A DNA stretch of 64,000 nt from Escherichia coli (GCF_045037415.1 NZ_CP173438.1); one strand, 5' to 3'. Shown: positions 12,001-15,000, counted from the stretch's first letter. Made by a program: the numbers.

Positions 12001-15000
12001 GATTCAACGCCTCCACCGCTTCTTTCAACTGCAGATGGCAGCCCGCCGTGATTGCCCCACCGCCTACGTAGACAACCGGTTTTTTTGCCGCCACCAGCGT
12101 TTGCAGAGCGCGCTTAATTTGCCCTTTATGCCCGGAGGTCGTGGGATTGTAAGAACGCATACTGACCGACTCCGGCCAGACATAGGGTAATTTGTTCGCC
12201 GGATTTAGAATATCTTTCGGTAAATCAACGACCACGGGTCCAGGACGACCACTTGCCGCTAGCCAGAAAGCCTTTTTCAGCACCTGCGGAATGTCTTCCG
12301 TTTGCTTAACCAGAAAACTGTGTTTAACCACCGGGCGAGAAATCCCCACCATGTCGCACTCCTGAAAGGCATCATAACCTATCAACGAAGTCGCTACCTG
12401 CCCGGAAAGGACAACTAATGGAATGGAATCCATATAAGCGGTGGCAATGCCAGTAATCGCATTGGTCGCCCCTGGACCCGACGTTACCAGCACGACGCCG
12501 ACTTCCCCGGTCGCGCGCGCCAGACCATCGGCCATATGCACCGCCGCCTGCTCATGGCGAACTAAAACATGATCGATACCACCCACGGTATGCAATGCAT
12601 CGTAAATATCAAGGACCGCGCCTCCAGGATAACCGAATACTTGTTTAACGCCCTGATCGATAAGCGATCGGACGACCATCTCGGCTCCAGACAACATCTC
12701 CATGGCCTGCCTCACTGTTTGACGGAAAAAATGTGTAAAACACATTAACCGTCCGATCTTGCTTAAGCAATTGGCAGACAGAGACATAAACACGGGGTAA
12801 TAAGAATAAACAGGAGGAAAGGTGAAAAGAAACGATAAAATCCTCCATTACAGAGGATGAAATTGATAATAAATCGGCTGAATCCTACAACTTACAGCAA
12901 TTTCTCTATTTTTTTAATTAATCCTAAAATAGAGAGCACAAATATTCAGAATAAAATTCTACATTCAATAAAAAATGCAGAATAAACCAGACATTGATGT
13001 CTGACCTATTCTGCATTCAGTTAGCGTTTGCAAATTGAGACTAATTGCTCTTCCATCCACTGATGGCCTTTATCGCGCCCGGCAGCTTCATGCCAGGAGA
13101 GATAACAGGTTCTGCTGTTTTGTTTTAACGGCAGCGGTAATACCTGTAACTCTAAGGATTCAGCGAACTCTTCAGCCAACCAACGCGGCGCAATAGCAAC
13201 CAGATGCGTTTGCGACACCACGCTAAGTACGCTCATCATTGCCATGCCCTGATACGCGATACTGGCTTGCTTATCTACCGTGTCATACCAGGTTTGACTA
13301 AATGACGCGAAACGATCGAGCGAAACCGCCGCATGTTGTTCGTTATAAACATCATGTTTCAGTAACGGGCCTTTAATTGTTGGATGATTTTTGCTGGCTA
13401 CCAACACCATTTCATCTTTAAATAATGGCACGCTGGTAAATTCAGGACGATGGAAGTCTTCATAACTAATCACAAACTCCGTTTCCTGATAACGCAGCTG
13501 ATGTTCAGTGTTCTGATTTAATGAAGACTTGAACATAACATGTATATTTGGCGCAATCTGCTCAATGTGATTATAAATCTGCGAGGTCAGAATGCTGTCT
13601 AACGGGCTGCAGACACAAAGATGAAATACACGTTCACTACTGGCAGGCTCAAAGCCTGAACCTGGTAATTCATTTTGTACTAATTGCAATGCCTGACGAA
13701 CTGAGCCAAAAAGTTGAAATGCGCGAGCAGTCGGTTGAATACCACGACCATAACGAACAAAAAGCTCGTCATTAAACATCACCTTCAGGCGTGCAACAGC
13801 GTTACTGACCGCAGGTTGCGACATTCCCAGAGCATGAGCGGCACGGGTGATGTTTTGCTCCTGCATCACGGCATCGAAAACGGTTAATAAGTTGAGATCG
13901 ACCATGCGTAGCTGTGGCTTGCTTAACTCCGCCGTCTCTGGATGATCTGTTTGTACCTCTGGCATACTTAACTCCACTGTCACACTTAACTCCCTTTCCC
14001 TTATTGGAATGCAGAGAAATAATCCTCGAGAATATGATTTATCATGCATATAAAATAAGAAAAAGCAAAATGAGTAAAATTAGGAAAACATAAAGATACG
14101 GGTTCTGATAAAAACAGAATCCACTGCCGAGCAAAGAGTCGTTTACTACAGCATAATAATCCATAATTTTTTTGTTGCGAAAACAATCTAATCATAACTA
14201 CCACGAATACTCAATCATCCACAAAATGGATTAAATGTGCTTTTTAATAATTAATTTATATGTTTAATGCATTAATTCTTAACATTAATTGATCAATAAT
14301 ATTCACCAAATGAATATCAAAAAATTCGCAAAACATATAATTCAATACAAATCATCAGGATAGGTTTTGTAACGCGTGCATTTTATCCCCCTTTCCCTCG
14401 TTGATTAGATGCAAAAAATTATTCTGAAATATGTCAACCGATGAAAAGCATCGGCGGTTAAGCAGAAATTAATATCGCTTGTTTTAACCACCGCAGCACA
14501 ATTAGCTAATTTTACGGATGCCGAACTCACAATGGCGTGACGTTTTTATTGCTTCAGGGTTGACATCCGTTTTTGTATCCAGTAACTCTAAAAGCATATC
14601 GCATTCATCTGGAGCTGATTTAATGACTCACATCGTTCGCTTTATCGGTCTACTACTACTAAACGCATCTTCTTTGCGCGGTAGACGAGTGAGCGGCATC
14701 CAGCATTAAGCCAGCACGCAGTCAAACAAAAACCCGCGCCATTGCGCGGGTTTTTTTATGCCCGAAGCGAGGCGCTCAAAAAGAGACAAGGACCCAAACC
14801 ATGAGCCAGCAAGTCATTATTTTCGATACCACATTGCGCGACGGTGAACAGGCGTTACAGGCAAGCTTGAGTGTGAAAGAAAAACTGCAAATTGCGCTGG
14901 CCCTTGAGCGTATGGGTGTTGACGTGATGGAAGTCGGTTTCCCCGTCTCTTCGCCGGGTGATTTTGAATCAGTGCAGACCATCGCTCGCCAGGTTAAAAA

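What the first reader, a model, noticed from the sequence alone, without database searches (positions are those of the whole stretch)
14623..14757. leu leader peptide and attenuator
The 28-codon leader with four tandem rare CUA leucine codons, followed by a GC-rich hairpin and T7 tract, is a textbook transcription attenuator.
Basis: partly seen in the sequence, partly recalled or inferred. Interest (0 to 1): 0.12.

Follow-up and report, generated by a model that had tools for sequence, protein, structure and literature searches.

The report
E. coli leucine operon leader attenuator
This is the well-known leucine-operon leader (leuL) of Escherichia coli, a short RNA switch that stops transcription before the leucine-synthesis genes unless a ribosome stalls on four rare leucine codons; it is real, intact and entirely ordinary.

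Summary
The observation and the interpretation both hold. Window 14623-14709 encodes the 28-aa peptide [28 protein letters not shown], with four tandem CUA codons at 14650-14661. A 7-bp G+C stem (12 bp with its A:U extension) and a T7 tract ending at 14757 follow. leuA starts at 14801, followed by leuBCD. Rfam Leu_leader (RF00512) matches 14609-14757 full length at 147.4 bits (gathering score 50). The peptide passes the NCBIfam leuL cut-off. The same DNA is present and annotated leuL in 5399 of 5426 complete E. coli genomes. Alternative pairing exists: GCGCGG (14676-81) pairs with the terminator's 5' arm CCGCGC (14734-39). It is the minimum-energy fold only when a ribosome sits on or before the Leu codons and the terminator's 3' arm has not yet emerged. 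At equilibrium the terminator always wins, so the switch is kinetic. In 85 distinct leaders from many enterobacterial genera the three competing segments are invariant while the adjoining loops and spacer vary. Nothing new: already known, low interest.

The parts
14560..14565 (+). -35 hexamer TTGACA of the leu promoter (inferred)
   Evidence: Perfect consensus hexamer. TTGAC[A/T] in 92 of 92 distinct enterobacterial upstream regions, with a 17-nt spacer in 91 of 92. Identical to K-12. The pattern match alone is not above chance in the window.
14583..14588 (+). candidate -10 hexamer TAACTC (weak; inferred)
   Evidence: Lies 17 nt after the -35. The leading TA is invariant across genera; variants are TACCAC in 73 and TAACTC in 18. 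The consensus scanner missed it because it requires T at position 6. The transcription start was not determined here. About 14595-14596 is expected from the spacing, and the block CATAT at 14595-14599 is nearly invariant.
14611..14614 (+). Shine-Dalgarno GGAG of leuL
   Evidence: Lies 8 nt before the ATG. The two outer G are invariant and the inner G and A are at least 90% conserved in 85 leaders.
14623..14709 (+). leuL leader ORF, 28 codons plus TAA
   Evidence: Translation. NCBIfam NF007397 scores 80.9 bits against a cut-off of 59. Annotated leuL in RefSeq E. coli genomes. ATG invariant; the stop position is kept as TAA or TGA in most of the 85 leaders.
14650..14661 (+). four tandem CUA leucine control codons (region 1)
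   Evidence: CUA is 2.9% of Leu codons in the window's own ORFs. In the free RNA, 14648-14654 pairs with GGUAGAC at 14680-14686. This helix has a compensatory pair: U:A in 57 sequences, C:G in 18.
14633..14696 (+). protector (pause) structure: 14633-42 with 14687-96, 14648-54 with 14680-86, and the small hairpin 14664-67 with 14675-78
   Evidence: MFE and centroid of the free leader. -21.4 kcal/mol when folded alone. It sequesters GCGCGG whenever no ribosome sits on the Leu codons. Corresponds to the published leuL pause/protector hairpin (PMC9291695).
14676..14681 (+). antiterminator 5' arm GCGCGG (region 2)
   Evidence: Pairs with 14734-14739 when a ribosome stalls at codons 6-13 (pair probability 0.93-0.98) and not when it stalls from codon 15 or 16 onward. 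Invariant in 85 of 85 leaders, including third codon positions.
14728..14739 (+). terminator 5' arm AAAAACCCGCGC (region 3); CCGCGC at 14734-39 is shared with the antiterminator
   Evidence: CCCGCGC invariant in 85 of 85. The A run is one base shorter than in K-12.
14744..14757 (+). terminator 3' arm GCGCGGG (region 4) and T7 tract
   Evidence: 7-bp G+C stem at -13.4 kcal/mol; 12 bp with the A:U extension at -18.7 kcal/mol. 6 of 7 stem columns are invariant. The loop at 14740-43 varies freely, with 10 variants.
14801..19482 (+). regulated genes leuA (14801-16372), leuB (16369-17463), leuC (17466-18866), leuD (18877-19482)
   Evidence: NCBIfam equivalogs all score far above their cut-offs. Same order as annotated in SK1144 and K-12.

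Best explanation
This is the leuL leader and ribosome-mediated transcription attenuator of the E. coli leuLABCD operon. Transcription starts near 14596 from the promoter at 14560-14588. A ribosome translates the 28-codon leader while RNA polymerase is still transcribing it. When charged Leu-tRNA reading CUA is plentiful, the ribosome runs past the four CUA codons to the stop. It then covers or leaves sequestered the GCGCGG segment (14676-81). The segment CCCGCGC (14733-39) stays free until its partner GCGCGGG (14744-50) emerges. The terminator hairpin forms, and polymerase releases a leader transcript of roughly 160 nt at the T7 tract, before leuA. When leucine is scarce, the ribosome stalls on the CUA run. 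That masks the 5' strands of the protector structure and frees GCGCGG, which captures CCGCGC before the terminator's 3' arm has been made. Polymerase then reads through into leuABCD. If the leader is not translated at all, the protector structure holds GCGCGG and termination is the default. Shown here: every sequence element, the three alternative folds and their dependence on ribosome position, their conservation, and identity with the K-12 leader. Inferred, or taken from published work on the same sequence: that stalling happens in vivo, that the pre-formed antiterminator survives long enough (kinetic trapping), the exact transcription start, and the polymerase pause that couples the ribosome to the polymerase.
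For: Rfam RF00512 matches full length at 147.4 bits against a gathering score of 50. The leuL peptide passes the NCBIfam equivalog cut-off, and leuABCD lies immediately downstream. The same DNA is annotated leuL in 5399 of 5426 complete E. coli genomes and equals K-12 except for 1 nt. The free leader folds into protector plus terminator, z = -4.85. With the transcript ending at 14739-14746 and a ribosome on Leu codon 2, the MFE contains the six pairs 14676-81:14734-39. With no ribosome, or with a ribosome at the stop codon, the terminator arm stays free and the terminator forms. Placing the stall on every codon in turn gives antiterminator pair probability 0.93-0.98 for codons 6-13, dropping to 0 by codon 15 or 16, so the CUA run occupies the last positions at which a stall still leaves GCGCGG exposed. 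CUA is 2.9% of Leu codons in this genome. In 85 distinct leaders, regions 2, 3 and 4 are invariant in 21 of 22 columns, against 0 of 28 in the adjoining loops and spacer. The antiterminator is paired in 100% of sequences, and the Leu-codon helix shows a compensatory U:A to C:G change. Conservation is flat across codon positions (0.84, 0.81, 0.86), so the RNA rather than the peptide is under selection. Literature: leuL is described as the attenuation leader whose four adjacent Leu codons favour the antiterminator on stalling, citing Wessler and Calvo 1981 (PMC3783181). Replacing CUA with CUG in the Salmonella leader reduced sensitivity (Carter et al. 1986, as described in PMC1183508). A NusA-enhanced pause follows the protector hairpin in leuL (PMC9291695).
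Against: Nothing contradicts it, but three limits apply. (1) At equilibrium the terminator wins regardless of ribosome position. Downstream of a stalled ribosome it is favoured by 5.4 kcal/mol once 14750 has emerged and by 10.8 kcal/mol at 14757, so read-through must rest on kinetic trapping, which folding energies cannot show. (2) The antiterminator and terminator stems never vary in the sample, so they give no covariation evidence. The outer protector helices copied from the E. coli fold are only 61-84% paired across genera, and whole-structure covariation is modest (0.121 against 0.05-0.08 for slid controls). (3) The comparative sample was collected with a 19-mer that includes the four CUA codons, so it cannot show how conserved the codon choice itself is. 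The generic scanner found neither the promoter nor the terminator.
Confidence: 0.97

Rival explanations
1. The hairpin and T tract are an ordinary constitutive intrinsic terminator or transcriptional insulator between the leuO-leuL intergenic region and leuA, and the short ORF with four CUA codons is incidental.
For: At equilibrium the terminator forms in every ribosome state modelled. The hairpin is flanked by an A run and a T run, so it could also stop antisense transcription.
Against: No + strand gene lies upstream that would need terminating; leuO and ilvI are on the - strand. A constitutive terminator 44 nt before leuA would silence an essential biosynthetic operon. Four tandem CUA codons have a chance of about 7e-7 given this genome's usage. 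The antiterminator segment GCGCGG is invariant in 85 of 85 leaders, including synonymous positions, and sits exactly where a ribosome stalled on Leu leaves it exposed.
Confidence: 0.01
2. The 28-aa LeuL peptide is itself a functional small protein, and the conservation reflects its amino-acid sequence rather than an RNA switch.
For: The ORF, its Shine-Dalgarno, its start and its length (26-30 codons) are conserved across genera. Trans-acting leader peptides exist elsewhere, for example peTrpL in Sinorhizobium (PMC7298713, listed).
Against: Outside LLLLNA and RG the peptide varies freely, for example MTHIVRFIG against MIRTLRFTG, with variable C-termini. Identity is no lower at third codon positions than at first or second (0.855, 0.842, 0.806). 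The invariant residues coincide with the RNA pairing segments, whose synonymous positions are also invariant.
Confidence: 0.01
3. The leader senses leucine or uncharged tRNA directly as a riboswitch or T-box-like RNA, without translation.
For: A highly structured, conserved 5' leader ends in a terminator with an alternative antiterminator, the same output logic as riboswitches and T-boxes.
Against: The Rfam scan of the window assigns the region to Leu_leader and to no riboswitch or T-box family, while it does find the neighbouring TPP riboswitch. The leader carries a conserved Shine-Dalgarno, ATG and stop. The switch in fold is accounted for by ribosome position alone.
Confidence: 0.01

Closest known systems
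E. coli K-12 leuL (b0075) leader and attenuator of leuLABCD; Rfam RF00512 Leu_leader
   Same: Same gene. The peptide is identical. The DNA is identical from the -35 hexamer through the T tract except for one base. Same flanking genes leuO and leuA. Full-length covariance-model match.
   Different: The A run 5' of the terminator stem is A5 here and A6 in K-12, which shortens the possible A:U extension by one pair. This allele occurs in about 1017 of 5281 E. coli genomes. There is one further substitution at 14779, downstream of the terminator.
Salmonella enterica leu leader (the system in which the rare-codon and pause experiments were done)
   Same: 28 codons, four CUA codons, identical regions 2, 3 and 4 and T7 tract in the S. 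enterica subsp. arizonae locus L041.
   Different: The peptide differs (MSHIVRFTGLLLLNAFSVRGRRVGGIQH), as do the terminator loop and the spacer.
Other ribosome-mediated amino-acid operon attenuators of enterobacteria (trpL, hisL, thrL, pheL, ilvL, ivbL)
   Same: Same architecture and logic: a short leader ORF with tandem cognate codons, then protector/pause, antiterminator and terminator hairpins that overlap pairwise (established knowledge; PMC1183508, PMC9291695).
   Different: Different regulatory amino acid and codon choice. The leu leader is the standard example that uses a rare codon, whereas thrL, for example, uses the major codon ACC (PMC1183508). There is no sequence homology between these leaders.

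Membership tests
Rfam RF00512 Leu_leader | Covariance-model score at or above the curated gathering score (50 bits), full-length match | tested here: met
   147.4 bits, model positions 1-148 of 148, window 14609-14757 +, E = 1.7e-32
leuL leader peptide (NCBIfam NF007397 equivalog) | Peptide scores above the curated cut-off (59 bits) over its full length | tested here: met
   80.9 bits, residues 1-28 against profile 1-28
Ribosome-mediated transcription attenuator | Short translatable leader ORF (Shine-Dalgarno, start, stop) directly upstream of the biosynthetic operon for the cognate amino acid | tested here: met
   GGAG 14611-14, ATG 14623, TAA 14707-09, leuA at 14801; the Shine-Dalgarno, ATG and stop are conserved in 85 leaders
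Ribosome-mediated transcription attenuator | Tandem regulatory codons for the amino acid made by the operon | tested here: met
   Four consecutive CUA Leu codons at 14650-14661; CUA is 2.9% of Leu codons in the window
Ribosome-mediated transcription attenuator | Intrinsic terminator (G+C stem followed by a U tract) between the leader ORF and the first structural gene | tested here: met
   CCCGCGC-CAUU-GCGCGGG followed by U7, -13.4 kcal/mol for the core and -18.7 with the A:U extension. The generic scanner missed it, probably because the A:U extension takes up the T tract (inference).
Ribosome-mediated transcription attenuator | Antiterminator helix that uses the terminator's 5' arm, so the two are mutually exclusive | tested here: met
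   14676-81 pairs with 14734-39. It is the MFE of the emerging transcript until the 3' end reaches 14748 and is paired in 85 of 85 leaders. No covariation is available because neither strand ever varies.
Ribosome-mediated transcription attenuator | Protector (1:2) pairing that sequesters the antiterminator arm unless a ribosome occupies the control codons, with the control codons placed so that a stalled ribosome frees region 2 without covering it | tested here: met
   The free RNA pairs 14648-54 with 14680-86 and 14664-67 with 14675-78. The stall scan gives antiterminator probability 0.93-0.98 for codons 6-13 and 0 by codon 15 or 16. Compensatory change in the Leu-codon helix.
Ribosome-mediated transcription attenuator | Read-through responds to charged Leu-tRNA in vivo and requires leader translation; a polymerase pause couples the ribosome to the polymerase | not testable with these tools
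   Reported for the E. coli and Salmonella leaders: Wessler and Calvo 1981, cited in PMC3783181; Carter 1986 and Bartkus 1991, described in PMC1183508; pause and NusA effect in PMC9291695. The window's leader is identical to K-12 in all paired segments.

The most novel reading that the evidence does not exclude
The abundant, prematurely terminated leader transcript of about 160 nt (or, less likely, the LeuL peptide) might have a second, trans-acting role, as reported for the trp attenuator RNA rnTrpL and the peptide peTrpL in Sinorhizobium. The strict invariance of the three GC-rich segments would then reflect more than the three-way pairing constraint. Nothing here tests this. The flat conservation across codon positions argues against a peptide function but does not exclude an RNA one.
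Probability: 0.03. Interest if true: 0.45.

Novelty: already known. Interest (0 to 1): 0.04.

Why it matters
It matters only as a check on the scan. The first-stage reader correctly recognised a classical regulatory element from raw sequence, with exact coordinates. The element is the standard example of rare-codon use in attenuation and has been characterised since about 1980. This copy adds no new biology. The analysis does yield three small points. The switch cannot be seen in an equilibrium fold and has to be modelled co-transcriptionally. The three competing segments are frozen across enterobacterial genera while everything around them drifts. A generic terminator scanner can miss a terminator whose A run pairs with its own T tract.

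Tried and rejected
(1) Equilibrium folding of the full leader with a 30-nt ribosome mask on each Leu codon or on the stop codon. The terminator persisted in every state. I rejected this as a test because the attenuation decision is made before the terminator's 3' arm exists, and replaced it with co-transcriptional truncations. (2) Whole-leader folds with a mask on Leu codon 4 gave pairing between RNA upstream and downstream of the ribosome. I judged this unrealistic on a translated message and refolded only the RNA 3' of the ribosome. (3) The consensus promoter/terminator scanner found neither the leu promoter nor the attenuator terminator on the + strand. The promoter was instead supported by a cross-species footprint, and the terminator by folding and Rfam. 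TTGACA-N17-TA as a bare pattern is not above chance in the window (3 found, 4.7 expected). (4) Covariation for the antiterminator and terminator was uninformative because all pairs are invariant. (5) The mechanical 63-aa ORF 14518-14709, which shares its frame with leuL, was rejected as a gene. Its upstream part overlaps the promoter, only the last 28 codons match the family, and the conserved Shine-Dalgarno and ATG are at 14611-14625. (6) I tried to read Carter et al. 1986 (PMC386880), but it is not held in the library. Its result is cited second-hand from PMC1183508. (7) Two of the 98 pattern hits (L016 and L030) were dropped as probable chance matches, because neither has a T tract and neither has a 28-codon ORF.

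Full report
**1. What is in the sequence.**
Reading window 14300-15100 shows the following, in order:
- an ATG at 14623, preceded by GGAG at 14611-14614;
- 28 sense codons and TAA at 14707-14709;
- the hairpin CCCGCGC (14733-39), loop CATT, GCGCGGG (14744-50);
- exactly seven T (14751-57);
- the next long ORF, starting at 14801.

The translation is [28 protein letters not shown]. Codons 10-13 are CTA CTA CTA CTA (14650-14661), and this is the only occurrence of that 12-mer on either strand of the window.

The 'rare codon' claim was checked against the window's own 40 long ORFs. CUA supplies 52 of 1809 Leu codons (2.9%; 3.0 per thousand codons) and is the third-rarest sense codon. Four Leu codons drawn at that usage would all be CUA with probability about 7e-7.

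The leader RNA (14596-14760) folds to -54.8 kcal/mol against -37.2 +/- 3.6 for dinucleotide shuffles (z = -4.85; 0 of 200 shuffles as good).

**2. Identity.**
- Rfam. A scan of the whole window places Leu_leader (RF00512) at 14609-14757 on the + strand. The match is full length, at 147.4 bits against a gathering score of 50.
- NCBIfam. The peptide scores 80.9 bits against the cut-off of 59 for the equivalog 'leu operon leader peptide'. The four ORFs that follow are leuA, leuB, leuC and leuD, all far above their cut-offs. LeuO and the acetolactate synthase III large subunit (ilvI) lie upstream on the opposite strand.
- E. coli genomes. The 261 bases around the leader are found once each in 5399 of 5426 complete genomes, always under a feature annotated leuL. 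Strain SK1144 is 100% identical and has the same gene order.
- K-12 MG1655. The window is identical from the -35 hexamer through the T tract, except that the A run just 5' of the terminator stem has five A instead of six. One more substitution lies at 14779, downstream of the terminator.

**3. Testing the mechanism.**

A naive test folds the whole leader at equilibrium with 30 nt masked by a ribosome. It keeps the 12-bp terminator whether the ribosome sits on any Leu codon or on the stop codon. That test is wrong in kind, because the decision is taken while the terminator's 3' arm is still unmade.

I therefore folded the transcript as it emerges (3' ends at 14739-14746).
- No ribosome: the Leu-codon strand 14648-54 pairs with GGUAGAC (14680-86). 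A small hairpin (14664-67 with 14675-78) takes up the rest of GCGCGG. The terminator's 5' arm stays unpaired and waits for its 3' partner.
- Ribosome at the stop codon: the same result.
- Ribosome on Leu codon 2: GCGCGG (14676-81) pairs with CCGCGC (14734-39), which is six of the seven G+C positions of the terminator's 5' arm.

I then folded only the RNA 3' of the ribosome and placed the stall on each of the 29 codons in turn. The mean probability of the six antiterminator pairs is 0.93-0.98 for stalls at codons 6-13. It falls to 0 by codon 15 or 16, depending on the assumed footprint edge, because the ribosome then covers GCGCGG itself. The four CUA codons (10-13) are therefore the last positions at which a stall still frees the antiterminator arm. 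This is the geometry of the classical model.

Energetically, downstream of a stalled ribosome:

| Emerged 3' end | Favoured fold |
|---|---|
| up to 14748 | antiterminator conformation, -20.0 kcal/mol |
| 14750 | terminator, by 5.4 kcal/mol |
| 14757 | terminator, by 10.8 kcal/mol |

Read-through therefore has to rely on the pre-formed helix resisting displacement for the short time polymerase needs to clear the T tract. That step is inferred, not shown.

**4. Comparative evidence.**
One scan of the species-representative genome collection with the 19-mer CTACTACTACTAAACGCAT returned 98 loci. They come almost entirely from Enterobacteriaceae, including Escherichia, Salmonella, Citrobacter, Enterobacter, Klebsiella, Raoultella, Kosakonia, Leclercia, Lelliottia, Phytobacter, Pluralibacter and Silvania.

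Of these, 91 had a complete leader: a 26-30-codon ORF with LLLL at the same place, and a run of at least five T about 100 nt after the first CUA in all but one of them (L060, see section 7). The 85 distinct sequences, window included, were aligned.

Outside the pattern-fixed columns, conservation is strikingly uneven:

| Segment | Invariant columns |
|---|---|
| UGCGCGGU (14675-82) | 8 of 8 |
| CCCGCGC (14733-39) | 7 of 7 |
| GCGCGGG (14744-50) | 6 of 7 |
| Hairpin loop, 18-nt spacer and terminator loop together | 0 of 28 |

The terminator loop has ten variants. The invariant columns include third codon positions. Within the ORF, identity is the same at all three codon positions (0.84, 0.81, 0.86). 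This is what selection on RNA pairing predicts, rather than selection on the peptide. The peptide itself varies freely outside LLLLNA and RG.

The antiterminator is paired in 85 of 85 sequences but never varies, so it offers no covariation. The same is true of the terminator core. The invariance has a natural explanation, which is inference on my part. Region 3 must pair with both region 2 and region 4, so any change would need two simultaneous compensations.

Real covariation appears in the Leu-codon helix, where pair 14649:14685 is U:A in 57 sequences and C:G in 18. It also appears as A:U to G:U changes in the terminator's extension. The outer protector helices copied from the E. coli fold are only 61-84% paired across genera, and whole-structure covariation is modest (0.121 against 0.05-0.08 for slid controls; 2 of 500 shuffles as high).

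One caveat applies to all of this. The sample was ascertained on the CUA run, so it says nothing about how conserved the codon choice is.

**5. Promoter.**
The generic scanner found no + strand promoter. A bare TTGACA-N17-TA pattern is not above chance in the window. An upstream alignment of 92 distinct sequences supports the promoter instead:
- TTGAC[A/T] in all 92;
- a 17-nt spacer in 91 of 92;
- an invariant TA opening the -10 position (TAACTC here and in 17 others, TACCAC in 73).

The CATAT block at 14595-14599 is nearly invariant. This fits a transcription start near 14596, which also matches my recollection of the K-12 annotation. The start was not determined here.

**6. Comparison with what is known.**
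This is the leuL attenuator itself, not a relative of it.
- leuL is described as the leader of leuLABCD whose four adjacent Leu codons slow the ribosome on starvation and favour the antiterminator, citing Wessler and Calvo 1981 (PMC3783181).
- The leu leader is discussed as the paradigm for rare regulatory codons. Replacing CUA by CUG in the Salmonella leader reduced sensitivity to leucine limitation (PMC1183508, describing Carter et al. 1986 and citing Bartkus et al. 1991).
- A polymerase pause near the end of leuL, after the protector hairpin, was measured at a half-life of about 28 s and is lengthened 1.7-fold by NusA (PMC9291695).

All family-defining features that can be tested on sequence are met (see the membership table). 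The in vivo response cannot be tested here, but it has been published for this same sequence.

**7. Rivals, and what was noticed in passing.**
A constitutive terminator, a functional micropeptide and a translation-independent riboswitch were each considered. Each is contradicted by gene context, by the conservation pattern or by the Rfam result (see the rivals section).

Things noticed in passing:
- setA is absent. The 3' end of sgrS lies 33 nt from the leuD stop, whereas K-12 has setA between them. This setA-less junction is contiguous in 2159 of 5426 E. coli genomes.
- The A5 allele occurs in about 1017 of 5281 genomes.
- The leader contains the rare Arg codons AGA and CGA inside the region-2 strand.
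- One Enterobacter genome (L060) has a broken T tract.

**8. Verdict.**
The element is already known and intact, and its biological interest is very low.

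Noticed in passing
window 19483-19514 (junction between the leuD stop at 19482 and the SgrS 3' end at 19515): setA, which lies between sgrS and leuD in K-12, is absent here. 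sgrS/sgrT directly abuts leuD, as in strain SK1144. The junction is contiguous in 2159 of 5426 complete E. coli genomes and split in the rest, so this is a common presence/absence polymorphism.
   Followed up: partly
window 14728-14732: The A run 5' of the terminator stem is A5 here and A6 in K-12. About 1017 of 5281 E. coli genomes match the window exactly over 14696-14762, and most others differ by one base over a span one base longer. The allele shortens the possible A:U extension of the terminator by one pair; any effect on basal read-through is unknown.
   Followed up: partly
window 14683-14688: Codons 21-22 of the leader are AGA CGA. AGA is the second-rarest and CGA the fifth-rarest codon in the window's ORFs. 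They lie in the GGUAGACGAG strand that pairs with the Leu-codon strand and with 14633-42, so RNA pairing probably dictates them, but a slowing effect on the ribosome near the pause site is not excluded.
   Followed up: no
window 19515-19741 (-), 21498-21597 (+), 42737-42829 (+): Other Rfam matches above gathering score: SgrS (226 bits), the TPP riboswitch downstream of sgrR, which I take to precede thiB as in the K-12 gene order (66 bits), and naRNA4 (64.8 bits).
   Followed up: no
window 14728-14757, + strand: The consensus terminator scanner did not report this textbook terminator. The likely cause is that the stem extends through A:U pairs into the T tract and leaves too few unpaired T after the stem. 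This is a systematic blind spot for terminators with an upstream A run.
   Followed up: partly
L060:1356-1530 (Enterobacter sp. EA-1, CP025776.1): The leader is otherwise typical, but its T tract reads GGGGTTTTATG instead of GGGTTTTTTTATG. Only four T follow the stem. This could be a sequencing error or a weakened attenuator.
   Followed up: no
L056:2197-2371 and L090:4225-4399 (L056 is Enterobacter pulveris; L090 was not identified): These are the most divergent leaders in the set: a 6-nt insertion in the spacer after the stop codon, a different 5' leader, and the T tract 7-8 nt further from the Leu codons. Regions 2, 3 and 4 are nevertheless unchanged.
   Followed up: no
L016:5539-5719 (contig labelled Enterococcus sp. 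RIT-PI-f): The 19-mer occurs inside an ORF reading ...ALLLLNAF... with no T tract downstream. It may be a chance match, a degenerate leader, or an enterobacterial contig under a wrong label.
   Followed up: no
E. coli genome search: 27 of 5426 complete E. coli genomes have no match to the leader. I suspect, without having checked, that these are leu-deletion laboratory strains. Three matches lie on records typed as plasmids.
   Followed up: no
window 14518-14709 (+): The mechanical ORF list gives a 63-aa ORF in the leuL frame, starting from an upstream ATG at 14518. Its extra 35 codons run through the promoter and are not part of the gene. Automated ORF callers could mis-extend leuL here.
   Followed up: yes
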